Assembly: GCA_963717315.1 (NCBI GenBank)
Contig: CAVQWA010000056.1
Location: forward strand, 5,960-69,959
Direction of reading: 5' to 3'
DNA from: an uncultured Gemmatimonadales bacterium
GTDB taxonomy: Bacteria; Gemmatimonadota; Gemmatimonadetes; Gemmatimonadales; GWC2-71-9
DNA length: 64,000 nucleotides
Part shown: positions 5,978-36,957 of the stretch, in pieces
Layout: each line of letters starts with the position of its first letter
How positions within the stretch are numbered: the stretch's first letter is position 1
Notes under the pieces: model-generated
Databases searched by the model: none
What the model saw: only the letters and a program-made list of their open reading frames with translations
Told to the model about the DNA's origin: nothing
Translations under genes and position numbers: made by a program

Positions 5978-6829
5978 ATGCCATTGATGCCGCTTCGCAC
6001 CCTCACCCTGCCCCAGCCCGCCGCCGGCGCCTACGAGGCCTGGTTGGCCGAACTGGACGCCCGCCTCGGCGAGCCGGCGGCGGACTGGAACGCCATCTGC
6101 CGCGACACCCTCTTCCGGCTCTGGTACCCGGCCGAGTCGGACTGGGCGGCGCTGGTGGAGGACCCGGCCCTGCCCCTCGCGTCGCGCGCGGCGCTCCTCG
6201 CCCTCGACCCGCGCCACGTCACCCTCGAGCCGGAGTACTACGCGGACGTGGACCCGGTGAAGTTCGCCCGGGTGAAGCCGCTCCTCTGGCTCTGGTACTC
6301 GTTCGACCGCTCCCCCCTCGGCGGCCAGCACGTGGACCTCGGCGTGCGCTTCCGGCGGATGCTGGCGCCGCGGATCTTCAAGTCCTGCGGCGAGCGCTTC
6401 AAGTGCTTCCAGCACGTCGAGTTCTCCTACGGGTACAACCTCGAGGTGGGCGACGGCGTGGTGGTGCACCGCCACGTGCTGCTCGACGACCGGGGCGGCA
6501 TCCGGCTGGGCAACCGGGTGAGCGTGGCCGACTACGCCAACGTCTACAGTCACACGCACAGCATCGTGGACCAGGTGGACGTCACCCTGGCGAGGACGGT
6601 GCTCGACGACGACGTGCGCGTCACCTACCACGCCACGGTGCTGGCGGGGGTCCACGTGGGGGTGAACGGGATGGTCGGGGCGGGCGCGCTCGCCACCAAG
6701 GACGTGCGGCCCTACCACCTGAACGTGGGCGTGCCGGCCAAGTCCATCCGCGTGAAGCCGAATGCCCCGACGGAACTGGCGCGCACCGTGCGGACCGGCG
6801 GCGACGACGACGAGGACGACGACCGCTGA
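5978..6829 (+). CDS. hexapeptide-repeat (left-handed beta-helix) acyltransferase
   Basis: AGGAGG at 5965..5970 precedes ATG 5978. Hexapeptide repeats LEVGDGVVVHRHVLLDDRGGIRLGNRVSVADYANV...VGVNGMVGAGA. Acidic tail GGDDDEDDDR. Confidence 0.8.
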   Translation: MPLMPLRTLTLPQPAAGAYEAWLAELDARLGEPAADWNAICRDTLFRLWYPAESDWAALVEDPALPLASRAALLALDPRHVTLEPEYYADVDPVKFARVKPLLWLWYSFDRSPLGGQHVDLGVRFRRMLAPRIFKSCGERFKCFQHVEFSYGYNLEVGDGVVVHRHVLLDDRGGIRLGNRVSVADYANVYSHTHSIVDQVDVTLARTVLDDDVRVTYHATVLAGVHVGVNGMVGAGALATKDVRPYHLNVGVPAKSIRVKPNAPTELARTVRTGGDDDEDDDR

Positions 6830-6846
6830 GCGGCCCGGTCGCGTGG

Positions 6847-8883
6847 GTGCTGGTGGCCGGCGCCACGCTGCTGGGCGCCGCCGCCCTCGGCCTCGGGGGG
6901 GCGTGGCGCCGCGAGCGTGCCGCCCGCCTGGCCGCGGAGGCGGACCGGGACCGGGCGGCGCGCGAGCTGGACCGGCGGCTGAACGAACTCTTCTCCCTCC
7001 GGGAGCTGGGCTACGCGCTCGCGGCCTCGCTCCAGCTCGACCGGCTGTCCCGCGAGGTGGTGCGTTACGCCACCCGCTTCCTCCGCGCCCGCGGCGCGAT
7101 GCTCCTCCTCACCGAACCGGACGCCCACGCCCTCCGCGTTGCCGCGGCCGAGGGGACGCTGCTGGCGCACGCCGGCCGCCTCCTGCCCGACGCCGACGAC
7201 ACCATCGTGCTCCGCGCCATCGGCGAGGAGCACCTCCAGGTGGCCGCCGCGTCCGCGGGCGAGCCGGTGCGGCTGGGCGGCGGGATCACGGTGCAGTCGG
7301 CGGCGGTGGTGCCGCTCCGGGCCCACGGGGTGATGATGGGCGCGCTGGTGGTGGTGGACCGGGAGGAAGGGCCCTTCACCCCCGAGGACCTCTGGCTCCT
7401 CTCCACCGTGGCGACCCAGGTGGCGGTGGTGGTGGCGAACAGCCGCTTCTTCGAGCTGATCCGGCAGGGGAAGGAGGCGTGGGAGTCCACCTTCGACGCG
7501 CTCACCGCGGGCGTGGCCATCCTCGACACCGCGGGCCGGGTGCGGCGCGCGAACCGCGCGCTGGGCCAGCTCGTCGGGCTGGGCGAGCCGGCGCTGGTGG
7601 GGCGGCCGCTCGTCGGGTTCCTCTTCGACGTGCCCGGCGCGGCCGGCGGCTTCCTGGAGGACGCGGTGGCGGGTCGGCGCGCCGATCCGCTGGTGACCCG
7701 CTCCGACCGGCTGGGCCGCCTGCTCCGGCTCAACGCCGCGCCGGTGCCCGAGGCCGCCGGCTCCGGGGCGGCGGTGGTGCTGGTCGAGGACGTGACGGCC
7801 CAGCGGCGGATCGAGGAGCAGCTCATCCAGGCCGACAAGATGGGCGCGGTGGGCCAGCTCGTCTCCGGCGTGGCGCACGAGCTCAACAACCCGCTCGCGA
7901 GCATCGCCGGGCTGGCCGAGCTCCTGCTCGAGCAGGCCCCCGCGGGGGACCGGAACCGCGAGCACCTGCGGGTGATCCACGAGCAGGCGGAGCGGGCGGG
8001 GCGGATCGTCCGGAACCTGCTGACCTTCGCCCGGACAGGCACGCCCGAGAAGGGCATCGTGGACCTGAACGACATCGGCCGCCGCTCCGCCCAGCTGCTC
8101 GCGTACGAATTCCGGCTGCGCGGCGTGACCTTCGAGGAGCGGCTCCACGCCGCGCCGGTCGAGGTCCGCGGCGACCCGCACGAGCTGCAGCAGGCGGTGC
8201 TCAACCTTCTCACCAACGCGAGCTGGGCGGTGAGCGCGGAAGGGGGGCACGCGGGCCCGCGGGTCGTGAGCCTCGAGACCGGCGCCGAGGCCGGGGAGGC
8301 GTGGCTCCGGGTGTCCGACTCCGGCCCGGGGGTGCCCGAGGACCACGTGACCGACCTCTTCACGCCGTTCTTCACCACGAAGCCGCCCGGCAAGGGCACC
8401 GGGCTCGGGCTGCCGATCAGCTACGGCATCGTGAAGTCGCACGGGGGCCGGCTGGGGTACGAACGCGCGCCGGGCGGGGGCGCGGCGTTCACCATGCGAC
8501 TGCCCGTGACGGGTGAGGCCAGCCTGCCGCGGGCGCCGGTGGTGCTGGTGGCCGACACCGACCCGTGGGCGCTCCGCACGGCAAGCGCCGTGCTCACCGC
8601 CGAGCACGCGCGGGTGGTGACCGCCGCCACCGCCGAGGCGGCCCTCGCCGCCGTCCGGCAGGAGCGGTTCGACCTGGTGGTGGCGGACGTCCGGCTCGCG
8701 CTCCCGTCCGGCGTCCGGTTCCTCGCGGTGCTCGCCGACCCGGCCCTCGCCCCGCGCGCGACCCTCGGCATCGGCGGACCGGCCGACGCCGTGCCCGCCG
8801 CCCCCACGCCCTTCGCGATGCTCGTCCGGCCGTTCAGCCCGCGCGAGCTGCGCGAGGCGGCGAGGAGGCTGATGGACGGCTGA
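6847..8883 (+). CDS. hybrid sensor histidine kinase (TM-GAF-PAS-HisKA-HATPase_c plus C-terminal receiver-like domain)
   Basis: H-box SGVAHELNNPL, N-box LLTNASWA, G-boxes DSGPGV and GKGTGLGL. C-terminal VLVADTD...DLVVADVRL...LVRPF receiver-like region. Start GTG 6847, or CTG 6826 overlapping the upstream stop. Confidence 0.85.
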   Translation: MLVAGATLLGAAALGLGGAWRRERAARLAAEADRDRAARELDRRLNELFSLRELGYALAASLQLDRLSREVVRYATRFLRARGAMLLLTEPDAHALRVAAAEGTLLAHAGRLLPDADDTIVLRAIGEEHLQVAAASAGEPVRLGGGITVQSAAVVPLRAHGVMMGALVVVDREEGPFTPEDLWLLSTVATQVAVVVANSRFFELIRQGKEAWESTFDALTAGVAILDTAGRVRRANRALGQLVGLGEPALVGRPLVGFLFDVPGAAGGFLEDAVAGRRADPLVTRSDRLGRLLRLNAAPVPEAAGSGAAVVLVEDVTAQRRIEEQLIQADKMGAVGQLVSGVAHELNNPLASIAGLAELLLEQAPAGDRNREHLRVIHEQAERAGRIVRNLLTFARTGTPEKGIVDLNDIGRRSAQLLAYEFRLRGVTFEERLHAAPVEVRGDPHELQQAVLNLLTNASWAVSAEGGHAGPRVVSLETGAEAGEAWLRVSDSGPGVPEDHVTDLFTPFFTTKPPGKGTGLGLPISYGIVKSHGGRLGYERAPGGGAAFTMRLPVTGEASLPRAPVVLVADTDPWALRTASAVLTAEHARVVTAATAEAALAAVRQERFDLVVADVRLALPSGVRFLAVLADPALAPRATLGIGGPADAVPAAPTPFAMLVRPFSPRELREAARRLMDG

Positions 8884-13870: not shown

Positions 13871-14476
13871 ATGCGCTTTCACTCCCTCGCCGCCCTCCTG
13901 CTCCTCGCCGCCTGCACCGCCGAGCCGCCGGCCCACCAGGCCGCCGAGCCGCCGGCGGGGCCGCGGCGGGTGGTCGACAGCATCTTCCCCATCGAGGAGG
14001 AGATCCGGCGCTTCCAGGCCACCCTCCCCGACACCGCCCGGGCCCTCGCCGGCGGCGAGGCGAGCCGCGACGCCCTGGTGCGCCGCTTCGTCCGGGCGCT
14101 CGAGGGCGGCGACTCCACCGCCTTCGCGCCGATGGCCGTGACCCGGGCCGAGTTCGGGTACCTCTACTTCCCGGAGTCCCGCTTCAGCCGGAAGCCCTAC
14201 CGGACCAAGCCCGGGCTCCTCTGGAGCCAGATCGAGAACGGCTCGAGCCGCGGGATCAACCGGGCCTACCTCCGCTTCGGCGGCCAGCCGCTCGGCTTCT
14301 CCGGCTACGACTGCCCCGCCGAGCCGGCGGCGGAGGGGGCGAACCGGGTCTGGGAGGGCTGCACCGTCACCATCCGCCCCGCCGGCAGCGACTCCGCCCG
14401 GAGCCTCCGCCTCTTCGGCTCCATTCTCGAGCGGGAGGGGAGCTGGAAGTTCCTGAGCTATTCGAACGACCTCTGA
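13871..14476 (+). CDS. hypothetical lipoprotein
   Basis: MRFHSLAALLLLAACTAEP signal with lipobox. High third-position GC. No family recognised. Confidence 0.7.
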   Translation: MRFHSLAALLLLAACTAEPPAHQAAEPPAGPRRVVDSIFPIEEEIRRFQATLPDTARALAGGEASRDALVRRFVRALEGGDSTAFAPMAVTRAEFGYLYFPESRFSRKPYRTKPGLLWSQIENGSSRGINRAYLRFGGQPLGFSGYDCPAEPAAEGANRVWEGCTVTIRPAGSDSARSLRLFGSILEREGSWKFLSYSNDL

Positions 14477-14489
14477 CGGACGGGACGGC

Positions 14490-15944
14490 CTAGTACCCCG
14501 CCTCGCTCGCCGCCTGCCACGGGTCCACCGTCACCTTCCCGCGGACCCGCGCGAGGGTCTCCTCCTTCGTGGGCGTGCCCCAGATATTGCCGCCGGCGGC
14601 GAGGCCGGTCGCGTCCACGTACCATTCCCGGGCCCGGAGGAAGACGTTGCCGGTCACCACGGCGCCGGCGGAGACGTCGTCCACGACGAGGCCCGTCCCC
14701 ACCCCGTCGAAGAGGTTCCCCCGCACCCGCGCCTGCGTGGTCCGCTCGAGCACCAGCCCGCGCTCGACATTCGCGAGCACGTTGTCGTCCACGGCGTACC
14801 CGCGGCTCTGCTCCGCGCCCGCGGTGGGCGCGAAGAGCCGGATGCCCACGCCGCCCCCGATGATCACGTTCGCCGCCAGCGCGTTGTCGCTCCCGTGCTC
14901 GACGGCGATGCCCGCGGTCCGCGAGCCGACCACGATGTTCCCCCGCACCACCGTGCCGGTCGAGTAGCCCAGCCAGAAGCCGTAGTCGCTCGAGTCGGCC
15001 CGGTTCTCGAGGAACGCATTCCCCCAGCTGAACGTGGACTCGAACGCGTTGTGCCGCGCGTGCGAGCCGTCGTTCCGGATGACGATGTTCCCCTGGGAGG
15101 GCCTCACCCGCGGCCGGTGGCCGCTCAGGAAGAAACCGTCGCCCGAATGGGAGAGGTCGTTCTCCGCGACGTAGTTCGAGTCGCTCTCCTCCCGGAGCAG
15201 GAGGGCGGCGGAGTCGCACCCGCGGCTCCAGGTGCCGAAGGCGCAGCGGATGTTGTGCGAGGCGCGGTTCCGCACGATGACGTTCCGCGCGCTGGCCCAG
15301 AGGTGGATGCCCCAGCCGGAGTTCCGGGAGACGTCGTTGTCCGCCAGGTAGCTCCCCCGGGTGCCGACGAGCCCGATGCCGTTCTGGGCCCCGTTGGCCT
15401 TGACCCCGGTGACGGTGACCCCGTCGGCCCACTTCACCAGCAGGCCGCCGCCGTAGGTCTCGAAACTGTCGGGCCGGAAGATGTCGAGCCAGTCGCGCTC
15501 GTCGTAGCGGTCGGCGGTGGAGAGCAGCCGCTGCCGCCGCGAGCCGCTCAGGTCGGCCCCGCTCACCCGGTGGCCGCGCCCGCCCTCGACCCGGATGCCG
15601 TAGCGGTACCCCGAGATCCTCCCGCCGGTGATGACGACGCTGTCCACCCCGCGGCTCACGACCCCGGTGCCGACGAACGCCTCCGGCAGGGTGTCGCCGC
15701 TCTCCAGGACCACGCCGGAGAGGTCGAGCGTGGTGCCCGACCCGACCACCACCAGCACCCCCTTCTCCTCCGGGTCACGGATCCGGTAGCGGCCGGGGCA
15801 GACCCGGACGTCGCCCTGGACGTGGGTCTCGGCGCGCGAGGGACGGATGCAGGTGGGCATCACCTGCGCGGCGGCGCGACCGACCGGCAGTAACGCGGCA
15901 GCGACGAGGACGACGGGGATCCAGCGCGAAACCCTGGGGACCAT
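14490..15944 (-). CDS. right-handed parallel beta-helix repeat protein (NosD/pectate-lyase-fold), secreted
   Basis: Signal MVPRVSRWIPVVLVAAALLPVGRAAAQ. Repeated ~22-aa beta-helix turns (GIRVEGGRGHRVSGADLSG, NGIGLVGTRGSYLADNDVSRNSGWGIHLW, and others). Confidence 0.85.
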   Translation of the reverse strand: MVPRVSRWIPVVLVAAALLPVGRAAAQVMPTCIRPSRAETHVQGDVRVCPGRYRIRDPEEKGVLVVVGSGTTLDLSGVVLESGDTLPEAFVGTGVVSRGVDSVVITGGRISGYRYGIRVEGGRGHRVSGADLSGSRRQRLLSTADRYDERDWLDIFRPDSFETYGGGLLVKWADGVTVTGVKANGAQNGIGLVGTRGSYLADNDVSRNSGWGIHLWASARNVIVRNRASHNIRCAFGTWSRGCDSAALLLREESDSNYVAENDLSHSGDGFFLSGHRPRVRPSQGNIVIRNDGSHARHNAFESTFSWGNAFLENRADSSDYGFWLGYSTGTVVRGNIVVGSRTAGIAVEHGSDNALAANVIIGGGVGIRLFAPTAGAEQSRGYAVDDNVLANVERGLVLERTTQARVRGNLFDGVGTGLVVDDVSAGAVVTGNVFLRAREWYVDATGLAAGGNIWGTPTKEETLARVRGKVTVDPWQAASEAGY

Positions 15945-15954
15945 TGACGGCTTT

Positions 15955-15989
15955 CTCGTGACTCGTGACTCGCGACTCGCGACTCCCCT
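15955..15989. repeat. (CTCGYGA)n heptamer array, 4 units plus 1 degenerate
   Basis: ctcgtga ctcgtga ctcgcga ctcgcga ctcccct. Fills the gap between the NUDIX stop and the beta-helix gene start. Reverse complement of the 52387 array unit. Confidence 0.9.
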
Positions 15990-16458
15990 ACCTCACCCGC
16001 AGCACATCCTCCACCGTCCCGGCATCGCCCGCCGCGAGGAGCCGCCCGGCGTCCTCCAGCGCGCGCGCGCTCCGCGGCCAGGTGCACCGGGCGCGCGCCG
16101 CCTCGAGCGGCAGCCACTCGGCGGCGTCGTGCTCGCGGGAGAGCCGCACCGGCGCGCCGGGCGCCACGAACGCCGCGAAGGCGGGCACCAATTGCACCGC
16201 GCCGCTTGCCTCCACCCAGAACGCATCCACCCGGCTCAGGTTGTACAGCCGCTCCGCGGGGAGGCCGGTTTCCTCCTCCAGTTCCCGCAGGGCGGCGTGG
16301 GCCGGGGAGGGATCACCGGCCTCGACGTGGCCGTGCACCGCCTCCCAGGAGCCGGGGCAGCGGCCGTGCGGGCCGCGGCGGAGCACCAGCGCCTCGAGCC
16401 CCGCGGGGCCCTGGCGGAGGGGGTAGAGGTCCACCAGCCCGGCCCGGACCCCGGTCAC
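15988..16458 (-). CDS. NUDIX hydrolase
   Basis: Nudix box GHVEAGDPSPAHAALRELEEETGL. GTG start overlaps the upstream ATPase stop (GTGA). Confidence 0.85.
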   Translation of the reverse strand: MTGVRAGLVDLYPLRQGPAGLEALVLRRGPHGRCPGSWEAVHGHVEAGDPSPAHAALRELEEETGLPAERLYNLSRVDAFWVEASGAVQLVPAFAAFVAPGAPVRLSREHDAAEWLPLEAARARCTWPRSARALEDAGRLLAAGDAGTVEDVLRVR

Positions 16459-18710
16459 GGGCGGCCGCGGCCAAGCACCGCCTCGAGCCGGGCGGAGAGA
16501 GCGCGCGCCCGGAACGGCTTGGTGAGGAAGTCGTCGGCGCCGAGCTCGAACACCCGTACCTCGTTGTCCTCGTCTCCCTTCGCGGTGAGCACCACCACCG
16601 GCGTCCTTGCGGTGGCGGGATGCGCCCGGAGGCGCTGGAGCACGTCGTACCCCGAGAGCCCCGGGAGGTTGAGGTCGAGCACGATGATGTCGGGCGCGCC
16701 CTTGTCGGCCTGGTCGAGCGCCTCGACGCCGTCCCGCGCCTCGCTCACGTCGAAGCCGTCGCGCTCGAGCAGGTCGCGCATCACCTTGCGCAGGGTGTCC
16801 TCGTCGTCCACCAGCAGCACGTGCACTCCGCGGCGCCCCTCGGCCACCGGCGGCGGCGGCGCCACCAGCTCCTCCTCCAGCAGGTCGAAGGCGGAGGAGA
16901 GGTCCACCTCGGCGGCTCGGCGGCTCGGCGGCTCGGCGGCTGGTGCCGATGGGGCGGCGGGAGGACGGGGCGGCGGGGTTGCGACCGCCCCGCCGATCGG
17001 CAGCGCATCCAGCCCCCCGTGCCCCGGCACGTCACACACCCGGAGCAGCTCGTCGATGGAGGTCTCGCCGGCGAGCACGTGGCGGAGGCCGCTCTCCCAC
17101 AGCGACTTCATCCCCTGCTGGCGGGCCAGCCGGCCGATCCGGTCGGCGGTGGCGCCCTCCCCGATCAGCTGCTCGAGGTCCTGCGTCATCGTGAGGATCT
17201 CGGTGATGCTGAAGCGGCCGCGGTACCCGGTCTGGGCGCACTCCGAGCAGCCGACGGCCTTGTAGATCTGGGCGCCGGCGGGCACGCGGTCCCGGGCCAG
17301 CTCCGGCACCAGGTCGCCGGGGGGCACCGGCAGCGCCTCCCGGCAGATGGGGCAGAGCCGGCGCATCAGCCGCTGGGCGACGATGCCCCGGAGCGCCGAG
17401 CCGAGCTTGTACGCCTCGATGCCCATGTCCACCAGGCGCGTCACCGCGTTGGGCGCGTCGTTGGTGTGCAGGGTCGAGAGCACCAGGTGGCCGGTGAGCG
17501 AGGCCTGCACGGCGATCTGTGCCGTCTCCCGGTCGCGGATCTCCCCCACCAGCACCACGTCGGGGTCCTGCCGCAGGATGGACCGGAGCGCCGAGGCGAA
17601 GGTCAGCCCCGCCTTCTCGTTCACCTGCACCTGCACGATGTTCTGGCCCAGCTTGTACTCGACCGGGTCTTCCACCGTGACGATGTTGACGCCCTCGCCC
17701 TGGATGAGCCGGATGGCGGAGTAGAGCGTGGTCGTCTTGCCCGAGCCGGTGGGCCCGGTCACCAGCACGATCCCCTCCTTGTGGTCGAGCAGCTTGGTGA
17801 TCTTCCGCCGCTCGTCGTCGTGGAGGCCGAGCGCCTCGAGGGCCAGCACCGTGGCCTTCGAGTTGAGGATCCGGATCACGACCTTCTCGCCCAGCGAGGC
17901 CGGCAGGGTCGACACCCGGAGGTCGATCTTCTCCTGGTTCACCTGCACCCGCGCCCGCCCGTCCTGGGGCCGCAGCCGGTCCGCGATGTCGAGCCCGCTC
18001 ATGATCTTCACCCGGGAGATCACCGGAAGCCCGGCGTTCCGCGGGATCCGCATCACCTGCCGCAACACGCCGTCGATCCGGTAGCGGACGACGACGCCGC
18101 CCTCGCTCGGCTCGATGTGGATGTCGCTCGCGCGGCTGGTGACGCCGTCGGCGAGCAGCATGTCCACCAGCCGGATGATGGGGCGGGCGCTGGCCTCGTC
18201 GGCCGAGACGTTGACGTCGTCCGGCTCGTCGGTGAGCTGCCGGACCATCGGCTCGTCCATCCCGCCGAGCAGCTTGGAGAGCACCTCCTCGGGGCGGTAG
18301 TGCTCGTCGATCTTCTCCCGGAGGCGCACCGGGGGCGCGAGCGCCATCCGCACGTCGCGGCCGGTGGCGAACGCGAGCTCCTTCTCGGCGTTGATGTCGA
18401 AGGGATTCGAGGTGGCCACCTCGAGCACGGCATCGGAGATCCGGAGCGGGAGCACGTGGTGCTTCCGGGCGAGCGCCTCCGGCACCGCAACCCGCGCCTC
18501 GAGCTCGGTGCTCGAGAGGTCGGCCACCGGCAGGCGGAAGCGCTGGGCCACCGCCTGCAGGATCTGCTGGTCGGTGAGCGCACGGCGCTGCACCAGCGCC
18601 TCCCAGAGGGAGAGGTTGGTGGTCGCCTGTTCCCGCTGGAGCCCGGCCATCATCTCCGGGGCCACCAGGGGCTCGACGGACGGGACCAGCCACTCGTCGG
18701 TGAAGGGCAT
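16455..18710 (-). CDS. GspE/PilB-family secretion ATPase fused to a C-terminal response-regulator receiver domain
   Basis: ATG 18710 (MPFTDEWLV). T2SSE_N-like N-domain. Walker A GPTGSGKTTT. Asp/His boxes. CPIC...CSEC zinc motif. Pro-rich linker. Then REC with DD (LLVDDED), D (IIVLDLNLPG), T (VLTAKG) and K (LTKPF). Confidence 0.9.
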   Translation of the reverse strand: MPFTDEWLVPSVEPLVAPEMMAGLQREQATTNLSLWEALVQRRALTDQQILQAVAQRFRLPVADLSSTELEARVAVPEALARKHHVLPLRISDAVLEVATSNPFDINAEKELAFATGRDVRMALAPPVRLREKIDEHYRPEEVLSKLLGGMDEPMVRQLTDEPDDVNVSADEASARPIIRLVDMLLADGVTSRASDIHIEPSEGGVVVRYRIDGVLRQVMRIPRNAGLPVISRVKIMSGLDIADRLRPQDGRARVQVNQEKIDLRVSTLPASLGEKVVIRILNSKATVLALEALGLHDDERRKITKLLDHKEGIVLVTGPTGSGKTTTLYSAIRLIQGEGVNIVTVEDPVEYKLGQNIVQVQVNEKAGLTFASALRSILRQDPDVVLVGEIRDRETAQIAVQASLTGHLVLSTLHTNDAPNAVTRLVDMGIEAYKLGSALRGIVAQRLMRRLCPICREALPVPPGDLVPELARDRVPAGAQIYKAVGCSECAQTGYRGRFSITEILTMTQDLEQLIGEGATADRIGRLARQQGMKSLWESGLRHVLAGETSIDELLRVCDVPGHGGLDALPIGGAVATPPPRPPAAPSAPAAEPPSRRAAEVDLSSAFDLLEEELVAPPPPVAEGRRGVHVLLVDDEDTLRKVMRDLLERDGFDVSEARDGVEALDQADKGAPDIIVLDLNLPGLSGYDVLQRLRAHPATARTPVVVLTAKGDEDNEVRVFELGADDFLTKPFRARALSARLEAVLGRGRP

Positions 18711-18741
18711 CGCGGTTCCGGGAGGCGGGGGAGGCGCTCCG

Positions 18742-18990
18742 CTAACTTGTGTCAATCCCGCAAGATAGAACCCACCGGCGGGGCCGGGTAGGGCTCGGGA
18801 ACGGCGCCCGACCCGACCCATCGCGCCCGCCCGCCCCGCTTGGCCGCGAACGCCCAGAGGCCCCCCTCCGGGCCAGCGCCAGCAGGCCTGACGGGATGCA
18901 GATTCGCGCGTCGCAGCGGAGGCTCGTGGCCACCAGGGCGAGGCTCACCATCGAGACCTCGAACTGGCCCGTCGCCGTCGTCACCGCCAT
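18742..18990 (-). CDS. small ORF or former C-terminal extension, in frame with and just downstream of the outer-membrane protein stop
   Basis: 38 of the first 40 third-codon positions are G/C, versus about 62% and 55% in the other two phases (hand count). Same frame as 19039..21078 and separated from it only by TGA plus 16 codons. No family recognised. Confidence 0.3.
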   Translation of the reverse strand: MAVTTATGQFEVSMVSLALVATSLRCDARICIPSGLLALARRGASGRSRPSGAGGRDGSGRAPFPSPTRPRRWVLSCGIDTS

Positions 18991-19038
18991 CCGGCACCCC
19001 CGCTCGGAGAGACCGGCACAATCCAGGCATCGGGCCGG

Positions 19039-21078
19039 TCACAGAATCCCCCACCACGCCCGGCTCACGTCCACCGTGACGCCCGCCTGCCCGGTGCGGA
19101 GCGCCACCCCCGCCTCGACCCGCAGGAGGCCCATCGGCCACTCCAGCGCGAGGCCGGCCACCGGGCGCACGCCGTCGGTCGGCATCCACGATACGCCGGC
19201 CAGCGCGCCGTCGGCCCATCCCGCCGACGCGAACGGCGCCACGGTGACGCCGCCGGTCCCGACCAGGCCGCCGAGGCGGATCTCCGGCGCGGGCACGGCG
19301 ACCCGCCACTCGAGGTGCGCCACCCCGCCGCGGCGGCCGCCGAAGGCCCGATAGTCCTCCCCCACCTGCGTCCCCCGGCCGCCGAACGCGACGCCGCGCC
19401 AGGCGGGGAGCTCGTCGCTGCCGGCGATCCCGTGCGCGCGGAGGACGAGCGCCCCCGGGCCCGCCGGCCACCGCGCCTCGAGGTCGAGCGCCGCGCGGAC
19501 CCAGTCGAGCCGCCCGGTCGAGGCCTCGAGCCACACCCGTCCCGCCACGTCCCGCCGCGCGAGCCCACCGGCCGCCCTCCGCTCGAGGCCGAGCGTGGCG
19601 GTGGCCGCGCTCCCCGCACCGAGCGGTGGATTCTCCCGGTACTCGCCGCTCGACGGCTCGGCCCGCACCGCGAGCGAGCGGGTGCGTCCCGCCGCGATCG
19701 CGAGCGTGAGCCTCTCGCGACCGCCGAGGGCGCGCGCCACGCCCGCCTCCACCGCCTCGTCCAGCAGCCAGTCGCCGAAGTCCTGCCCTCCCTCCTGCGC
19801 CAGGATGCTGTTGAGGAGGGGCGAGATCGGCCGCAGGTCTCCCGCGTCCCGCACGCTCCGCCGCGCCTCGGCGTGGAGCGTGGTGGCGCCGAGCCCGGCG
19901 TCGAGCCGGAGCGAGCCGGTGACCCGTCCGTCGGAGAACCCGTATGCCACCCGGGGCCGGAGGGCGAGCCGGCGGTCGCGCGAGCCGAAGGTCCAGCCGG
20001 CGCCCACCGTGAGGCCCTGCACCCGGGTCACCCGGGCCACCTCGCTCACCGAGCCGACGGCCGGCCGGCTGGCGGCGAGTCCGCTCAGCGCCTGCGCCCC
20101 CGCCAGCCGCTCGAGATCCCGCCGGAGTGCCGCGAGGTCCTCCCGCGTGACCGGCGCCGCCACGTCGGCAATGGCCTCGTCGAGTGGCCGCACCCACGCA
20201 CCCGCCGTGTCCGGCGCGGGCAGCCCGGCGATGGCGGGGCCGCGGAACAGCGAGTCGGCGAGCGGCGGGTTGAACGCGTAGTCGCCGATCTCCCAGCGCC
20301 CACGGATGATCCCGCGCGCCGGGAAGTCGAGCCACTCGCTCCGGCGGCGGATCTCGATCTCCTGCCGGAAGGGGAGCCACCAGCGCCCCTCCCAGCGGCC
20401 GTTCTCGAGCACCACCGCGATGTCCTCCACGTCGGCGTCGAGGTAGGCCGCCGGCGTGAAGCCGAAGCGGAACCGTACCACCTCCGCGGTGGCGGCATCG
20501 AGGAAGAGTTCGCCGATCACCGCGGGACGGGCGTGGTCCTTCGGGCGCACCGAGAGCACCCGGACGGCCACCTCGCCCCCGGGCCCCCGGATGGCGAGCG
20601 AGTCGGTGAGCGCGAAGTCGTAGACCCGGAGCCCGCCGGGGCTCAGCGGGTGGGGGACGCCGCGGACCTCCTCGCCGTCGCCGAGCCGGATCACCGGCCC
20701 GAAGTCGCCGGTGACGATGCCGAGGTGGTCGCGGTGGTAATGGACGCCGGTGGGGAGCCAGCGGCCGTCGCGCCAGGCGCGGATCACCTGCTTGTGGGGC
20801 CCCGGCGCGCGCCAGTACACTTCGACCGACAGCTCGTCCGCCTTCACGAGGCGGGGCGGGTCGGCGAGCCCCTCGCCCACCTGCGCCAGGAAGAAGACGA
20901 ACCCGTGCGCCACCGCCGTCCAGCTCCGCAGGGCGGAATCGCGCTCGGCGGCGGTGCGGCGGGCGGCGGCGCGCTCGGCCAGGGCGCGGGCGGCGGGCTC
21001 GTCCCTCCCCTGCGCCGCGGCCGGCGGGACGCCGGCGGCGAGAGCCAGCACGGAGAGGACGGCCAGGTGGCGCGACAT
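19039..21078 (-). CDS. hypothetical outer-membrane/surface-antigen-like protein
   Basis: ATG 21078 gives the signal MSRHLAVLSVLALAAGVPPAAAQ. The C-terminal half is rich in alternating beta-strand segments (GLALEWPMGLLRVEAGVAL). The competing ORFs 18752..21238(-) and 19315..21669(+) look like compositional artefacts. Confidence 0.75.
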   Translation of the reverse strand: MSRHLAVLSVLALAAGVPPAAAQGRDEPAARALAERAAARRTAAERDSALRSWTAVAHGFVFFLAQVGEGLADPPRLVKADELSVEVYWRAPGPHKQVIRAWRDGRWLPTGVHYHRDHLGIVTGDFGPVIRLGDGEEVRGVPHPLSPGGLRVYDFALTDSLAIRGPGGEVAVRVLSVRPKDHARPAVIGELFLDAATAEVVRFRFGFTPAAYLDADVEDIAVVLENGRWEGRWWLPFRQEIEIRRRSEWLDFPARGIIRGRWEIGDYAFNPPLADSLFRGPAIAGLPAPDTAGAWVRPLDEAIADVAAPVTREDLAALRRDLERLAGAQALSGLAASRPAVGSVSEVARVTRVQGLTVGAGWTFGSRDRRLALRPRVAYGFSDGRVTGSLRLDAGLGATTLHAEARRSVRDAGDLRPISPLLNSILAQEGGQDFGDWLLDEAVEAGVARALGGRERLTLAIAAGRTRSLAVRAEPSSGEYRENPPLGAGSAATATLGLERRAAGGLARRDVAGRVWLEASTGRLDWVRAALDLEARWPAGPGALVLRAHGIAGSDELPAWRGVAFGGRGTQVGEDYRAFGGRRGGVAHLEWRVAVPAPEIRLGGLVGTGGVTVAPFASAGWADGALAGVSWMPTDGVRPVAGLALEWPMGLLRVEAGVALRTGQAGVTVDVSRAWWGIL

Positions 21079-21669: not shown

Positions 21670-23099
21670 CCGCGCCCGCCGGCACGGAGCGGCGCCGCGT
21701 GCCGGTGGTCCGCGAGGTGGTGCTCGACGGCGACACCGCCGTGGGTGCCTTCGCGAAGCTGCACCGCGGCCCGTGGGGCTTCCTGCTCGAGTCGCTGGAG
21801 GGGGGCGAGCGGTGGGCGCGGTACAGCTTCCTCGGCACCGAGCCGCGCGAGGTGCTCCGCTACCGGGGCCGGAGCGTCGAGTCGTGGACCGCAGCCGGCG
21901 GCTGGCGGCCCGAAGCCGAGGACGTCGCCCCGCTCGAGCACCTCGGTGCCCGGCTCGCGGGCGCCACCGTGCGCGTGCCCGGCCTGCCGCGCTTCACCGG
22001 AGGCGCGGTCGGCTGGATCGGGTACGAGGTGGCGCGGACCCTCGAGCGGCTCCCCGAGGGCCCGCCGGACGACCGCGGGCTCCCCGACGCCGTGCTGATG
22101 CTCTGCGACACCGTGCTGGTGCTCGACAACCTGCGCCAGCGGGCGTACGTCGTGGCCACGGCGGCGCCGGACGACTCGGCGGACGCCGAGGCGAGGATCG
22201 AGGAGTGGCTGTCCCGGCTCGCCGCGCCGTCAGCGCTGGCGCCGCTCCCCATCGGCGGGCCCGCAGTACCGGCCGTCGCCGAGTCGGGCTACTCCGGCGC
22301 CCGGTTCGAGCGCGACGTGGAGCGGGTCCACGAGCACATCGCCGCCGGCGACGCCTTCCAGGTGGTGCTCTCCCGCCGGATGGACCTGCCGGCGCCGGAC
22401 GCGTTCCTCACCTACCGCTACCTCCGGGCGCTCAACCCTGCGCCCTACCTCCATTATCTCCGCTGCGACGACGTCGAGCTGGCCGGGTCCTCCCCCGAGG
22501 TCCTCGTGCGGGTGGAGGACCGGGAGGTGACGGTGCGCCCGATCGCGGGCACCCGGCCGCGCGGCGCCACGCCGGAGCAGGACGCGGCCCTCGAGGCAGA
22601 GCTCCGCGCCGACCCCAAGGAGCGGGCGGAGCACCTGATGCTGGTGGACCTCGGGCGGAACGACGTCGGGCGCGTGGCGGAATACGGGTCGGTGCGCGTG
22701 ACCGACCTGATGACGGTGGAGCGCTACTCCCACGTGATGCACCTGGTGAGCGAGGTGCGCGGCCGGCTCCGGCCGGGCCTCGACGCGCTCGACGCGCTCG
22801 CCGCGGCCTTCCCCGCCGGCACGGTGAGCGGGGCGCCCAAGGTGCGCGCGATGGAGATCATCGCCGGGCTCGAGCCGGTGCGCCGCGGGCCGTACGCCGG
22901 TGCGGTGGGTTACGCCGGCTGGGGCGCGGAGGCGCTCGACACCGCCATCGCGATCCGGACGGCGGTGTTCCGCGGCGGCCGCGCGTGGGTCCAGGCCGGC
23001 GCCGGCATCGTGGCGGACTCGGTGCCGGCGGCCGAGCTCCGCGAGACCGAGGCGAAGGCAGGCGCCGTGCTGGCGGCGCTGGGGCTCGCGGCCCGGTGA
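21666..23099 (+). CDS. trpE: anthranilate synthase component I
   Basis: MTAPAGTERRRVPVV... with family-wide similarity (LESLEGGERWARYSF, GAVGWIGYE, IAGTRPRG, MHLVSEV.G, FPAGTVSGAPKVRAMEII, RGPYAGAVGY). Confidence 0.93.
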   Translation: MTAPAGTERRRVPVVREVVLDGDTAVGAFAKLHRGPWGFLLESLEGGERWARYSFLGTEPREVLRYRGRSVESWTAAGGWRPEAEDVAPLEHLGARLAGATVRVPGLPRFTGGAVGWIGYEVARTLERLPEGPPDDRGLPDAVLMLCDTVLVLDNLRQRAYVVATAAPDDSADAEARIEEWLSRLAAPSALAPLPIGGPAVPAVAESGYSGARFERDVERVHEHIAAGDAFQVVLSRRMDLPAPDAFLTYRYLRALNPAPYLHYLRCDDVELAGSSPEVLVRVEDREVTVRPIAGTRPRGATPEQDAALEAELRADPKERAEHLMLVDLGRNDVGRVAEYGSVRVTDLMTVERYSHVMHLVSEVRGRLRPGLDALDALAAAFPAGTVSGAPKVRAMEIIAGLEPVRRGPYAGAVGYAGWGAEALDTAIAIRTAVFRGGRAWVQAGAGIVADSVPAAELRETEAKAGAVLAALGLAAR

Positions 23100-24592
23100 C
23101 CTGGCGGCTCGAGGCCATCGGCGGGGAGCAGGCCTGGGTCCTGCCCCGGGGTCGGCCCGCGGTTCTCGGCCGCGACCCGGAGTGCGACCTCGTGGTGCTC
23201 GACGCGACGATCTCGCGCCGCCACGCGCAGCTCACCTCGTACGAGGCGGGCGTGGAGGTGCGCGACCTCGGGAGCTCGAACGGCACGCTGCTCAACGGCG
23301 CCGGCGTCGAGGTGGCGCTGGCCGGCGACGGCGACACTCTCACCTTCGGCGGGGCCTCCTTCACGCTGCGCGCACCGGCCATACCGGGCGGACCCACGCC
23401 GGCGGGCGAGATGGTCCGGCACCTGCCCCTGGGTGACGCCGATGAGGCGCTGGCCGGCGCGGGTGAGGGCGAGCGGCTCGCGCGGCTGCTCGACGTGGCC
23501 CGCCGCTTCGCCGCCGAGCCCGACCTCGGCGCGCTGCTCGACACCATCGTCCGCGCCGCGCTCGAGCTCCTCGGCGCCGACCGGGTGGCGCTCCTCCTCG
23601 CCGAGGAGAAGAGCGGCGAGCTCATCCCCGCCGCGGCACGGAGCCGCACCGGGCCGCCGGGCGAGGTGCGGGTCCCGAAGACCATCGTCCGCGCCGCCAT
23701 CGAGGGCCGGGAGGCGCTGCAGACCGACAACGCGCCGGCGGACCCGCGCTTCCGCGGCGCGTCGGTCAAGCTGCTCAACGTGCGGAGCGCACTCGCCGCC
23801 CCGCTGCTGGGCGACACCGGACCTCTCGGCGTGCTCTACGCCGACCTGCTGGGCGACCGGAGCTTCACCGAGGAGGACCTCCAGCTCCTGGCCGCGTTCG
23901 CCGGCCTCGCCGCGGCCGCGCTCCGGAACGCCCGGGCGCAGCAGGCGCTCCGGCGCGGGGCGCTGCTCCGCTCCAACCTCGAGCGGTTCGTGGCGCCCGA
24001 CGTGGCCGCGGCCATCGCGAAGGCGCCCGGAGGCCTCGTGCCCGGCGGCGTCCGGCGGCACATCGTGGTCCTCTTCTGCGACATCCGCGGCTTCACCCGG
24101 CTGGCGGAGCAGATGCCGCCCGACACCCTCGCCGCCCTCCTCTCCGAATACTTCTCCGAGCTCGCGGACGTGGTGTTCGAGCACGGCGGCACGCTGGACA
24201 AGTTCATCGGCGACGCGGTGCTGGCGCTCTGGGGCGCGCCGGAACCGCAGGCCGACGCCGCCGACCGCGCGCTCACCGCCGCGCGCGGGATGCGCGACGC
24301 CGTGGCGGCGCTCGACCGGCGCTGGCGAGCGGAAGGCCGGCCCGCGATCGAGGTGGGAATCGGGATCAACGCCGGCGAGGCGTTCACCGGGGTGATCGGC
24401 AGCCCGCGCCGGCTGGAGTACACCGCGGTGGGCGACGTGGTGAACGTCGCGGCGCGGCTCTGCGACGTGGCGGGGCCCGGCGAGATCCTGGTGAGCGGGA
24501 GCCTCCTGATGGCGCTGGCGGTGCAGCGGCCCTCGGTGGAGCCGCGGCCCGGCGTGGCGGAGGGGCGGGAGGTGTACTCGCTGGTCGGGTAG
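23096..24592 (+). CDS. FHA-GAF-class III adenylate/guanylate cyclase
   Basis: GTG overlaps the trpE stop (GTGA). FHA: LGRDPECDLVVLDATISRRHAQL...GSSNGTLLNG. Central GAF-like region. Cyclase: VVLFCDIRGFTRLAE...KFIGDAVLALWGAP...TAVGDVVNVAARL. Confidence 0.9.
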   Translation: MTWRLEAIGGEQAWVLPRGRPAVLGRDPECDLVVLDATISRRHAQLTSYEAGVEVRDLGSSNGTLLNGAGVEVALAGDGDTLTFGGASFTLRAPAIPGGPTPAGEMVRHLPLGDADEALAGAGEGERLARLLDVARRFAAEPDLGALLDTIVRAALELLGADRVALLLAEEKSGELIPAAARSRTGPPGEVRVPKTIVRAAIEGREALQTDNAPADPRFRGASVKLLNVRSALAAPLLGDTGPLGVLYADLLGDRSFTEEDLQLLAAFAGLAAAALRNARAQQALRRGALLRSNLERFVAPDVAAAIAKAPGGLVPGGVRRHIVVLFCDIRGFTRLAEQMPPDTLAALLSEYFSELADVVFEHGGTLDKFIGDAVLALWGAPEPQADAADRALTAARGMRDAVAALDRRWRAEGRPAIEVGIGINAGEAFTGVIGSPRRLEYTAVGDVVNVAARLCDVAGPGEILVSGSLLMALAVQRPSVEPRPGVAEGREVYSLVG

Positions 24593-36851: not shown

Positions 36852-36957
36852 GCCGTAAGTTAGCGGTCCACCGGAACCTGCGACAACGCCCCGCTTGCCG
36901 CCCGCCGGGGGCGGGGCCTACGTTTCGGTCCTCCCTTCCCCGGTCCGGCCGGTCCCG

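What the first reader, a model, noticed from the sequence alone, without database searches (positions are those of the whole stretch)
15988..18710. Orphan GspE/PilB-type ATPase with a C-terminal receiver domain, translationally coupled to a NUDIX hydrolase
The ATPase has the full N-domain, Walker A/B and tetracysteine motif. It then continues through a Pro-rich linker into a canonical REC domain with all phospho-acceptor residues (DD, D, T, K). I know of no characterised secretion or pilus ATPase with this C-terminal fusion. No pilC/pilM-Q/gsp partner is nearby. The stop overlaps the start of a NUDIX gene (GTGA). This suggests a phosphorylation-gated hexameric motor used outside a classical T2SS/T4P locus, possibly with nucleotide-signal turnover by the NUDIX partner.
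Basis: partly seen in the sequence, partly recalled or inferred. Interest (0 to 1): 0.7.

Follow-up and report, generated by a model that had tools for sequence, protein, structure and literature searches.

The report
Pilus-type motor ATPase with receiver, NUDIX partner
A motor ATPase of the type that builds bacterial pili or secretion filaments carries a built-in phosphorylation switch and is tied to a small nucleotide-cleaving (NUDIX) enzyme; related bacteria fuse the motor directly to that enzyme, and nobody appears to have studied either arrangement.

Summary
Window 16455-18710 (-) is one 751-aa ORF: MshEN-type N-domain, T2SSE ATPase core, a roughly 65-aa Pro/Ala linker and a receiver (REC) domain. 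Its TGA overlaps the GTG start of a 156-aa NUDIX gene (GTGA).

- **Not a missed stop.** The 80 best matches in species-representative genomes, all Gemmatimonadales-type MAGs, cover the REC. Catalytic, zinc-binding and phospho-acceptor residues are invariant in 83/83.
- **Not rare.** 112 of the 150 closest 50%-identity clusters have a C-terminal REC, including Desulfobacteraceae, Methylomirabilota and Ca. Vecturithrix. I found no paper on it.
- **Signalling context elsewhere.** None of seven distant members has pilC, pilM or a secretin within 10 kb. Five sit in che operons or next to Hpt or hybrid kinase genes.
- **The NUDIX link is real.** At the orthologous locus, Gemmatimonadaceae encode one ATPase-NUDIX polypeptide (121 clusters). 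The 4-nt overlap occurs only in the closest relatives, and in 40 of 77 species hisC-hisB-hisH intervenes.
- **The canonical c-di-GMP motif is replaced** in 83/83.

Best reading: a phosphorylation-controlled PilB/GspE-family motor with a NUDIX partner, serving a filament machine encoded elsewhere. The machine, kinase and NUDIX substrate are unknown.

The parts
16455..18710 (-). Gene for a 751-aa PilB/GspE-family ATPase with a C-terminal receiver domain (N1D, N2D+CTD, linker, REC).
   Evidence: ORF and translation. Pfam MshEN + T2SSE + Response_reg. 119 of 120 listed homologues carry all three domains. The conserved N-terminus MPFTDEW fixes the start.
18285..18539 (-). N1D / MshEN-fold domain (residues about 58-142). 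The helix carrying the c-di-GMP motif lies just upstream, at residues 34-57.
   Evidence: Pfam PF05157, 1.7e-18. Motif positions are S34, W36, R43 and R57 in place of R, G, G and Q. The replacement is fixed in 83/83 family members and 0/83 have RLGxxLLxxG. The best-modelled part of the structure prediction, pLDDT 80-90.
17040..18197 (-). T2SSE ATPase core (N2D + CTD), residues about 172-557.
   Evidence: Pfam PF00437, 4.9e-134. It aligns over its full length with PilB, PilF and GspE structures.
17730..17756 (-). Walker A motif GPTGSGKTT (G319-T327).
   Evidence: Invariant in alignment A1. G319 and K325 are invariant in 83/83.
17238..17354 (-). Tetracysteine zinc-binding motif (C453, C456 ... 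C488, C491).
   Evidence: All four cysteines are invariant in 83/83.
16827..17024 (-). Pro/Ala-rich variable linker (residues about 563-628) between the ATPase and REC.
   Evidence: Low conservation. pLDDT below 50 for residues 564-627.
16908..16941 (-). Perfect octanucleotide tandem repeat (CCGCCGAG on the coding strand, 4.2 copies) inside the linker.
   Evidence: Tandem Repeats Finder: period 8, 100% matches. About 0.01 matches expected by chance. Absent from the linkers of relatives.
16485..16820 (-). Receiver (REC) domain, residues about 631-742. The phospho-acceptor D679 is encoded by codon 16674-16676.
   Evidence: Pfam PF00072, 5.8e-33. D/E635, D636, D679, T709 and K731 are conserved in 83/83. 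They are 80-95% or more conserved in 193 members of the wider family.
16455..16458 (-). GTGA: the ATPase stop codon TGA overlaps the GTG start of the NUDIX gene.
   Evidence: Read directly from the sequence. The same 4-nt overlap occurs only in L003, L004 and L005.
15988..16458 (-). Gene for a 156-aa NUDIX hydrolase. The NUDIX box is G43-L66 (nt 16261-16332).
   Evidence: Pfam PF00293, 9.6e-17. It aligns end to end with the C-terminal domain of the fusion protein P0448 (46% identity, 3e-41). The box is a variant with D49 and a one-residue insertion.
19039..21078 (-). Conserved upstream gene on the same strand: a roughly 679-aa protein with a signal peptide and a weak DUF5686 match.
   Evidence: Pfam PF18939, 3.4e-5, below its cut-off. 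Present upstream in 79 of 82 loci and also at the locus of the NUDIX-fused orthologue. No match in PDB, NCBIfam or PADLOC.
14490..15944 (-). Downstream gene on the same strand: a NosD-like beta-helix protein with a signal peptide, 43 nt after the NUDIX stop.
   Evidence: Pfam NosD and Beta_helix. Present in 61 of 82 loci. Absent at the NUDIX-fused locus.
6814..8883 (+). Candidate partner kinase: a hybrid GAF-PAS-HisKA-HATPase-REC histidine kinase.
   Evidence: Pfam. An orthologue lies within 10 kb in 44 of 82 loci and often abuts the cluster. No phosphotransfer evidence.
23069..24592 (+). Conserved neighbouring FHA-GAF-adenylate/guanylate cyclase gene.
   Evidence: Pfam. Present in 65 of 82 loci. 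A GAF-cyclase gene also lies directly upstream of a distant REC-fused ATPase in L084.

Best explanation
This is the Gemmatimonadota version of a PilB/GspE-family hexameric 'extension' ATPase. In this lineage the motor is itself a response regulator.

**Shown**
- The gene encodes a full N1D-N2D-CTD ATPase with every catalytic and zinc-binding residue intact.
- It is followed by a flexible linker and a receiver domain with a complete phospho-acceptor pocket.
- All of this is under strong purifying selection across 83 sampled genomes (the window plus 82 loci).
- The NUDIX gene downstream is a fixed companion of this ATPase. At the same chromosomal locus in the sister family the two are one polypeptide.

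**Inferred**
1. A histidine kinase or phosphorelay phosphorylates D679.
2. The phosphorylated receiver, on its roughly 65-residue tether, changes ATPase activity, hexamer state or docking to the membrane platform. The direction of the effect is unknown.
3. This input replaces the c-di-GMP input of canonical MshEN domains, whose key residues are substituted here.
4. The NUDIX enzyme binds the C-terminal side of the motor and hydrolyses a nucleoside-diphosphate-linked compound that affects it. The nearest solved relatives, weakly, are Ap4A hydrolases.
5. The motor drives a type IV pilus-like or T2SS-like filament machine whose platform, pilins and secretin are encoded elsewhere in the genome.
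For: - **Architecture and motifs:**
- **Conservation of the fusion:**. 458 stretches in species-representative genomes encode a relative, and the 80 best all cover the REC.
- **Family placement:** the closest solved proteins are PilB of M. xanthus and Geobacter, PilF and GspE.
- **Phosphorylation control:**
  - The receiver residues are invariant and also conserved across 193 members of the wider REC-fused family.
  - Two distant members overlap by 4 nt with che genes inside che operons (L086 and L087).
  - Two others follow a small Hpt gene and precede a hybrid kinase (L083 and L089).
  - One sits between a GAF-cyclase and a hybrid kinase with Hpt (L084).
- **NUDIX partnership:**
  - 121 clusters of MshEN-T2SSE-NUDIX proteins come from Gemmatimonadaceae/Gemmatimonadota.
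  - The fusion lies at the orthologous locus.
  - The stand-alone NUDIX aligns end to end with the fused domain, and the ATPase parts are 52% identical.
  - REC-type and NUDIX-type forms make one clade with 98% bootstrap support.
  - The NUDIX box is intact in 120/121 fused copies and 66/77 stand-alone copies.
- **Loss of the c-di-GMP motif:**, read against the mutational data in PMC5013675.
- **Machine encoded elsewhere:** Gemmatimonadota genomes are reported to encode type IV pili, with PilM at about 0.83-0.95 copies per genome (PMC10581226 and PMC7844134). A prepilin-type N_methyl gene lies about 10 kb from the orthologue in L090 and L091.
Against: - No platform, pilin, secretin or PilT gene lies within 64 kb here or within 10 kb in 92 related loci. 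The link to a filament machine therefore rests only on family membership.
- The protein falls below NCBIfam's equivalog cut-offs for both PilB and GspE.
- No Hpt or che gene is in the window. The nearest kinase is a hybrid kinase that would need an Hpt.
- Much of the synteny may be inertia. The whole region, including glmS, dtd, maf, trpE and clpXP, is conserved, so neighbours such as the kinase, the cyclase, the DUF5686-like gene and NosD are weak evidence.
- In 40 of 77 species his genes separate the ATPase from the NUDIX.
- The window's own NUDIX box is a variant.
- I could not count ATPase paralogues per genome, so a separate canonical PilB may exist.
- The structure model was too poor to show any domain docking.
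Confidence: 0.55

Rival explanations
1. It is a signalling ATPase with no filament machine. On this reading it is a PilB-like hexamer that has left pilus or secretion work and is the output of a two-component pathway. It would control, for example, exopolysaccharide or envelope functions through nucleotide-dependent protein contacts.
For: - REC-fused members are consistently encoded away from pil or gsp genes and inside signalling clusters.
- The scores are below both the PilB and GspE equivalog cut-offs.
- M. xanthus PilB is reported to have a signalling role in EPS regulation (PMC5544727, listed).
- The conserved neighbours are envelope proteins: the DUF5686-like protein and the NosD-like beta-helix protein.
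Against: - All features of a working extension motor are invariant, including the zinc-binding cysteines and the N1D that docks onto machine components in known systems.
- Extension ATPases are often encoded apart from their machines.
- PilM is near-universal in the phylum.
Confidence: 0.2
2. The NUDIX association is incidental. On this reading the NUDIX belongs to histidine biosynthesis or general housekeeping, and the overlap and the fusions are by-products of gene order in a slowly rearranging region.
For: - In 40 of 77 species the NUDIX gene lies between hisH and hisF, 2.3-2.6 kb from the ATPase.
- The overlap occurs only in four close genomes.
- The whole region is syntenic.
Against: - 121 distinct clusters keep ATPase and NUDIX in one reading frame, with an intact NUDIX box in 120 of them.
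- A neutral read-through fusion would not be expected to persist with both domains conserved at 46-52% identity.
- The NUDIX gene stays on the same strand, downstream, in all three arrangements.
Confidence: 0.15
3. The receiver is a pseudo-receiver. On this reading it is a structural or docking module that is never phosphorylated, as in FimX or TadZ/CpaE.
For: - No cognate kinase or Hpt is adjacent in this window.
- Some related sequences have a degenerate receiver (P0128: Response_reg 20 bits, below the cut-off).
Against: - D/E635, D636, D679, T709 and K731 are conserved in 83/83.
- The motif LTAKGDEDNEVRVFELGADDFLTKPFRA is almost invariant.
- Relatives are encoded in che and Hpt contexts.
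Confidence: 0.07
4. It is an artefact: a missed stop codon or frameshift joins two separate genes.
For: - The linker is low-complexity and GC-rich.
- It contains an 8-nt repeat that could slip.
Against: The same continuous architecture appears in the 80 best matches from independent species-genome assemblies and in well over 100 protein clusters.
Confidence: 0.01

Closest known systems
Type IVa pilus extension ATPase PilB (M. xanthus 3JC8, Geobacter 5TSG) and T. thermophilus PilF
   Same: - Same N1D-N2D-CTD layout, with Walker A and B, Asp and His boxes and the Cys4 zinc site.
- Best PDB match: 411 bits over residues 14-557.
   Different: - Carries an extra C-terminal linker and receiver.
- Scores below the PilB equivalog cut-off (553 against 675.65).
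- No pil genes lie nearby.
- The c-di-GMP motif present in M. xanthus PilB (RIGTALVKTG, seen in the alignment) is replaced.
Type II secretion ATPase GspE/EpsE (V. cholerae 1P9R, 4KSS)
   Same: - The core is as similar to GspE as to PilB (344 against 352 bits).
- Top NCBIfam hit (558.6 bits).
- Like XpsE, its N-domain has lost the c-di-GMP residues (PMC5013675).
   Different: - Scores below the GspE cut-off (630.25).
- There is no gsp operon.
- It carries the receiver and has the NUDIX partner.
Stand-alone receiver proteins that act on PilB or PilT: PilG/PilH of Pil-Chp, Synechocystis PixG/PixH and PATAN-REC proteins, Xanthomonas DrdR
   Same: A phosphorylatable receiver domain controls a pilus motor downstream of a chemosensory or two-component system (papers listed). 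Relatives of this protein are encoded in che operons.
   Different: Here the receiver is covalently joined to the motor, so no diffusible regulator is needed. No che genes lie in this window.
MshE-type c-di-GMP-binding ATPases (V. cholerae MshE, P. aeruginosa PA14_29490)
   Same: Same MshEN-fold N-domain joined to a T2SSE ATPase. PMC5013675 notes in passing that MshEN domains also associate with REC domains.
   Different: The motif-I residues R, G, G and Q are S, W, K/R and R in 83/83 members. Canonical c-di-GMP binding is therefore unlikely.
Asymmetric Ap4A hydrolases of the NUDIX family (human NUDT2 3U53, C. elegans 1KT9, T. thermophilus Ndx1)
   Same: Nearest solved relatives of the NUDIX partner. 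Similar size, about 150 aa.
   Different: The similarity is weak (E = 4.6e-6). No NCBIfam equivalog is reached (best is NudB, 37 bits against a cut-off of 103). The substrate is unknown. I found no report of a NUDIX enzyme attached to a secretion-type ATPase.

Membership tests
GspE/PilB/PilF 'extension' ATPases (T2SSE, PF00437) | T2SSE domain above Pfam's gathering score | tested here: met
   447.1 bits against a cut-off of 24.9.
GspE/PilB/PilF 'extension' ATPases (T2SSE, PF00437) | Walker A, the Walker B region with its conserved glutamate, and the Asp and His boxes | tested here: met
   GPTGSGKTT, VTVEDPVEY, DPDVVLVGEIRD and TGHLVLSTLHTNDA are near-invariant. K325 and E390 are invariant in 83/83.
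GspE/PilB/PilF 'extension' ATPases (T2SSE, PF00437) | N-terminal N1D (GSPII/MshEN fold) and the tetracysteine zinc site, which separate extension ATPases from PilT-type retraction ATPases | tested here: met
   MshEN 66.8 bits. C453, C456, C488 and C491 are invariant in 83/83.
Type IVa pilus assembly ATPase PilB (TIGR02538 equivalog) | Score at or above NCBIfam's curated cut-off | tested here: not met
   553.0 bits against 675.65.
Type IVa pilus assembly ATPase PilB (TIGR02538 equivalog) | Encoded with, or shown to work with, pilC, pilM-Q, pilT or pilins | tested here: not met
   None in the 64-kb window, and no second T2SSE paralogue in the flanks of 92 loci except L085. Genome-wide presence could not be scanned here.
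Type II secretion ATPase GspE (TIGR02533 equivalog) | Score at or above NCBIfam's curated cut-off, and a gsp operon context | tested here: not met
   558.6 bits against 630.25. No gsp genes in the window.
c-di-GMP-binding MshEN domain | Motif RLGxx(L/V/I)(L/V/I)xxG(L/V/I)(L/V/I)xxxxLxxxLxxQ (PMC5013675) | tested here: not met
   The window has SLWEALVQRRALTDQQILQAVAQR. S34, W36, K/R43 and R57 are fixed, and 0/83 members match the motif core.
c-di-GMP-binding MshEN domain | Binding of c-di-GMP | not testable with these tools
   Needs ITC or DRaCALA on the purified N-domain.
Response-regulator receiver domain (PF00072) | Domain above the cut-off, with the acidic pair, the phospho-acceptor Asp, and the conserved Thr/Ser and Lys | tested here: met
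   113.8 bits against 30.2. D/E635, D636, D679, T709 and K731 are conserved in 83/83.
Response-regulator receiver domain (PF00072) | Phosphorylation by a cognate kinase or Hpt | not testable with these tools
   The only evidence is context in relatives: che operons, Hpt genes and hybrid kinases.
NUDIX hydrolases (PF00293) | NUDIX domain above the cut-off | tested here: met
   61.7 bits against 21.1.
NUDIX hydrolases (PF00293) | NUDIX box GX5EX7REUXEEXGU | tested here: inconclusive
   The window copy has G43-x5-D49 followed by eight residues before RELEEETGL, that is E to D plus one inserted residue. The strict box is present in 66/77 stand-alone orthologues and 120/121 fused copies.
A named NUDIX subfamily (NudB, MutT, Ap4A hydrolase) | Score at or above an equivalog cut-off | tested here: not met
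   The best is NudB at 37.2 bits against 103. The PDB's best are Ap4A hydrolases at E = 4.6e-6.
Anti-phage defence systems (PADLOC) | A specific match to a defence-system protein model | tested here: not met
   Only generic P-loop, REC and NUDIX matches of at most 31 bits.

The most novel reading that the evidence does not exclude
REC and NUDIX may be interchangeable or cooperating C-terminal control modules of a distinct, phylum-wide clade of secretion-type motor ATPases.

On this reading the NUDIX enzyme, tethered or co-translated, destroys or senses a nucleotide that gates the hexamer, such as a dinucleoside polyphosphate. That would give pilus-like motors a previously unrecognised nucleotide input, replacing the lost c-di-GMP site.

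More broadly, REC-fused PilB-like ATPases would be a large unrecognised class of response regulators. Their output would be a mechanical motor that receives phosphoryl groups directly from CheA or Hpt proteins.
Probability: 0.3. Interest if true: 0.8.

Novelty: new variant of a known kind. Interest (0 to 1): 0.66.

Why it matters
How pilus and secretion motors are switched on and off is an active question. Known control works through separate proteins (PilZ/FimX, PilG/PilH, PATAN-REC proteins) or through c-di-GMP binding to the N-domain.

A motor with the receiver built in gives the shortest possible path from a kinase or chemosensory array to filament assembly. It is also a simple system in which to study how a receiver regulates a hexameric ATPase.

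The NUDIX link was unexpected. It is fixed as a fusion in one family and as an adjacent gene in another, which points to a nucleotide-based layer of control that has not been described for these motors.

The gene is also a core gene of Gemmatimonadales-type soil bacteria, a common group that is hardly studied experimentally.

Tried and rejected
- **Exact look-up of the window protein.** Neither the window protein nor P0001 has a contig on record.
- **Structure prediction.** AlphaFold2 on a 20-sequence alignment gave a poor model (mean pLDDT 55, pTM 0.28). I made no fold search and no claim about receiver docking.
- **Promoter and terminator scans** of 14300-21700 found nothing, so operon limits are inferred from gene spacing only.
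- **Neighbours as evidence of function.**
  - The NosD-like gene, the hybrid kinase, the FHA-GAF-cyclase and the DUF5686-like gene are conserved.
  - So is the surrounding housekeeping block.
  - The NosD-like gene, the kinase and the cyclase are absent at the NUDIX-fused locus.
  - I treat them as weak leads.
- **An earlier conclusion I reversed.** I first concluded that the NUDIX adjacency was incidental, because his genes intervene in half of the species. The ATPase-NUDIX fusions overturned this.
- **PilB or GspE?** PDB and NCBIfam scores do not separate the two. The neighbour-joining tree has weak deep nodes, so I cannot say whether the REC fusion arose once or several times.
The supplementary tables of PMC10581226 are cut off before the 'Type_IV...' rows.
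- **Defence-system reading:** rejected.
- **DUF5686-like protein:** no PDB or NCBIfam match.
- **Literature.** Searches for a PilB-REC or PilB-NUDIX fusion found nothing. This covers only the held open-access library.
- **Taxonomy of distant clusters.** Cluster look-ups gave almost no organism names. Names came only.

Full report
**1. The observation**

The window is about 73% G+C. I therefore called genes by third-position GC and checked them with Pfam.

On the minus strand, an ORF from the ATG at 18710 to the TGA at 16455-16457 encodes 751 aa. Pfam finds three domains:
- MshEN, residues about 58-142, 1.7e-18
- T2SSE, residues about 172-557, 4.9e-134
- Response_reg, residues about 631-742, 5.8e-33

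The stop overlaps the GTG start of a 156-aa NUDIX ORF (16458-15988; Pfam 9.6e-17) in the sequence GTGA. They cover Walker A and B, the four cysteines, the Pro-rich linker and the receiver residues DD/D/T/K.

**2. The fusion is real and conserved**

The protein search returned 120 listed homologues at 65-100% identity. 119 carry MshEN + T2SSE + Response_reg; the exception, P0007, is a truncated 601-aa record. Where named, nearly all are from Gemmatimonadales or Gemmatimonadota MAGs.

In species-representative genomes, 458 stretches encode a relative. The 80 best all cover query residues about 1-750.

I aligned the window with the 82 loci then in hand: the 80 species-genome loci plus L001 and L002.
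- K325, E390, C453, C456, C488, C491, D636, D679, T709 and K731 are invariant.
- Position 635 is D or E.
- The linker is hypervariable.
- The conserved N-terminus MPFTDEW supports the ATG at 18710.

**3. Family placement**

- The best solved relatives are M. xanthus PilB (411 bits), Geobacter PilB and T. thermophilus PilF.
- With the core alone, PilB (352 bits), PilF (345) and GspE (344) are indistinguishable.
- NCBIfam places the protein below both equivalog cut-offs: GspE 558.6 against 630.25, and PilB 553.0 against 675.65.

It is therefore a PilB/GspE-family extension-type ATPase, but not a member of either curated equivalog.

**4. The N-domain**

The canonical c-di-GMP motif is RLGxxLLxxGLLxxxxLxxxLxxQ (PMC5013675). 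Here it reads SLWEALVQRRALTDQQILQAVAQR.
- W36 and R57 are invariant in 83/83, K/R43 is present in 82/83 and S34 in 79/83.
- No member has the motif core.
- In the wider REC-fused family the consensus is still R-L-G...G...Q.
- PMC5013675 reports that comparable substitutions in XpsE abolish binding.

Loss of canonical c-di-GMP binding is inferred, not shown.

**5. Context in the window**

Pfam scans of about 58 genes found no PilC/T2SSF, PilM/N/O, secretin, PilT or pilin domain in 64 kb. The local order on the minus strand is:
1. DUF5686-like exported protein (19039-21078)
2. ATPase-REC
3. NUDIX
4. NosD-like beta-helix protein (14490-15944)

Also nearby:
- a hybrid GAF-PAS histidine kinase (6814-8883)
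- an FHA-GAF-cyclase (23069-24592)
- a REC-HD-GYP protein (35781-36875)

The rest is housekeeping: clpX, trpE, maf, dtd, glmS and glmM.

Counts across the 82 related loci:

| Neighbour | Loci with it |
|---|---|
| DUF5686-like | 79 |
| NUDIX | 77 |
| FHA-GAF-cyclase | 65 |
| NosD-like | 61 |
| Hybrid kinase | 44 |

The housekeeping flanks are conserved too, so this synteny is weak evidence of function.

**6. The wider REC-fused family**

A search of 1.84 billion cluster representatives gave 18,873 hits at E <= 1e-30.
- Of the best 150, 112 have an ATPase followed by a C-terminal receiver, at 36-58% identity to the query. This ranking favours receiver-bearing proteins.
- Named members come from Desulfobacteraceae, Desulfobacula, Methylomirabilota and Ca. 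Vecturithrix.
- Across 193 full-length members the receiver pocket is conserved: D636 and D679 about 90%, T709 about 90%, K731 at least 95%.

**7. Contexts of seven distant members**

None has platform, pilin or secretin genes within 10 kb.

| Locus | Context |
|---|---|
| L086 | cheW-mcp-cheA-cheB-cheR(TPR), then the ATPase-REC with a 4-nt overlap |
| L087 | ATPase-REC overlapping cheY, then cheZ-cheY-cheA-mcp-cheW-cheR-cheD-cheB |
| L083, L089 | small Hpt gene, ATPase-REC, large hybrid kinase |
| L084 | GAF-cyclase, ATPase-REC, hybrid kinase with Hpt |
| L085 | tandem with a second MshEN-T2SSE gene and a PatA_N-MshEN gene |
| L088 | no signalling gene directly adjacent |

This is the main support for direct phosphotransfer into the motor. 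It is context evidence only.

**8. The NUDIX link**

I first found that the overlap is clade-specific.
- Only the window, L003, L004 and L005 have it.
- In 37 of 77 species the genes are adjacent or less than 700 nt apart.
- In 40 of 77 species 2.3-2.6 kb intervene.
- In L012 that gap holds hisC, hisB and hisH, with hisF after the NUDIX gene.

That suggested coincidence. Inspection of the non-receiver hits then showed proteins in which the ATPase is fused directly to a homologue of this NUDIX.

A search with one of them (P0136) listed 120 clusters, all MshEN + T2SSE + NUDIX, named Gemmatimonadaceae or Gemmatimonadota.
- One of them, P0448, lies at the orthologous locus: glmM, glmS, dtd, maf ... 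trpE, DUF5686-like, then ATPase-NUDIX. It is followed on the other strand by hexapep, EngB, lon, clpX, clpP and tig.
- The window's NUDIX aligns end to end with P0448 residues 590-742 (46% identity, 3e-41).
- The ATPase parts align at 52% identity up to residue 563, where the linker and receiver are simply absent.
- The NUDIX box is canonical in 120/121 fused copies and 66/77 stand-alone copies. The window's copy has D49 and a one-residue insertion.

This is a classical gene-fusion ('Rosetta stone') argument for a functional link.

**9. Tree**

I built a neighbour-joining tree of 104 ATPase cores (372 columns, 100 bootstraps).
- The receiver-type and NUDIX-type Gemmatimonadota forms fall in one clade (98%).
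- Receiver-bearing sequences lie on both sides of its first split. This suggests, weakly, that the receiver was ancestral and was lost where the NUDIX became fused.
- Canonical PilB and PilF fall elsewhere.
- Deep nodes are unresolved.

**10. What the NUDIX is**

No subfamily is reached (NudB 37 bits against a cut-off of 103). The nearest solved proteins are asymmetric Ap4A hydrolases, weakly (4.6e-6). The substrate is unknown.

**11. The machine it serves**

Papers report type IV pilus genes in Gemmatimonadota (PMC10581226 and PMC7844134). A supplementary table lists PilM at about 0.83-0.95 copies per genome, like ribosomal proteins. TadB is also common. A prepilin-type N_methyl gene lies about 10 kb from the orthologue in L090 and L091.

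I could not scan whole genomes, so I do not know whether this is the only PilB/GspE-type ATPase in them.

**12. Literature**

PMC5013675 mentions that MshEN domains associate with REC domains, among others. A 2024 review of PilB regulation describes no receiver-fused PilB. Searches for PilB with a receiver or with Nudix found no study of either fusion. This covers the held open-access library only.

**13. Verdict**

The most likely mechanism is a phosphorylation-controlled PilB/GspE-family motor with a NUDIX partner. It would replace c-di-GMP control and serve a filament machine encoded elsewhere (confidence about 0.55).

The receiver fusion is a widespread but uncharacterised variant of a known kind. 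The ATPase-NUDIX pairing has no described precedent that I could find.

Noticed in passing
L012 12323-15928; window 15988-16458: In 40 of 77 related species the NUDIX gene sits inside a histidine-biosynthesis run: hisC-like aminotransferase, hisB (IGPD), hisH, NUDIX, hisF. It could double as a his-pathway pyrophosphatase. No his genes are in this window.
   Followed up: partly
window 16908-16941: A perfect octanucleotide repeat (CCGCCGAG, 4.2 copies) lies in the coding linker between the ATPase and the receiver. Gain or loss of one unit would shift the frame and cut off the receiver. It is absent from relatives' linkers, so it is probably recent slippage in low-complexity sequence.
   Followed up: partly
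window 19039-21078; L090 7356-9425: A roughly 680-aa exported protein with only a weak DUF5686 match is the most constant neighbour of the ATPase. It lies upstream on the same strand in 79/82 loci and also at the NUDIX-fused locus. It has no PDB, NCBIfam or PADLOC match, and its function is unknown.
   Followed up: partly
proteins P0126, P0130-P0134, P0326-P0355 (about 1000 aa): Many close hits are tandem double ATPases, with two complete T2SSE cores in one protein. Some are named Patescibacteria or Moranbacteria.
   Followed up: no
proteins P0135, P0219, P0241, P0259, P0154, P0180: Other receiver arrangements exist: three C-terminal receivers (P0135), an N-terminal receiver before the ATPase (P0241, P0259), a receiver followed by three N1D copies (P0219), and 1500-aa forms.
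   Followed up: no
window 23069-24592; L084 8376-9968: An FHA-GAF-adenylate/guanylate cyclase is conserved near the gene in 65/82 Gemmatimonadales loci. A GAF-cyclase lies 32 nt upstream of a distant REC-fused ATPase in L084. This may point to a cyclic-nucleotide link.
   Followed up: partly
window 35781-36875: A receiver-HD-GYP protein (a predicted c-di-GMP phosphodiesterase-type response regulator) lies in the same conserved region and is also present at the edge of L001.
   Followed up: no
L090 and L091: 22128-22232 and 3505-3987: At the NUDIX-fused locus a prepilin-type N_methyl gene starts about 10 kb downstream of the ATPase, and a second, separate 160-aa NUDIX gene lies next to maf.
   Followed up: no
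protein P0128 (706 aa): A relative inside the Gemmatimonadota clade has a degenerate receiver: Response_reg 20 bits, below the cut-off, with the acidic pocket altered. This suggests the receiver is decaying in some lineages.
   Followed up: no
L084 1-3409: A gas-vesicle gene cluster (gvpL/F, G, O, A, K) lies directly upstream of the signalling cluster that holds a distant REC-fused ATPase.
   Followed up: no
L066, L078 and P0007 record titles: Three records with typical family sequences are labelled Ilumatobacteraceae (L066), Bacillota (L078) and Methylomirabilota (P0007). Synteny and identity match Gemmatimonadales, so binning or labelling errors are likely.
   Followed up: no
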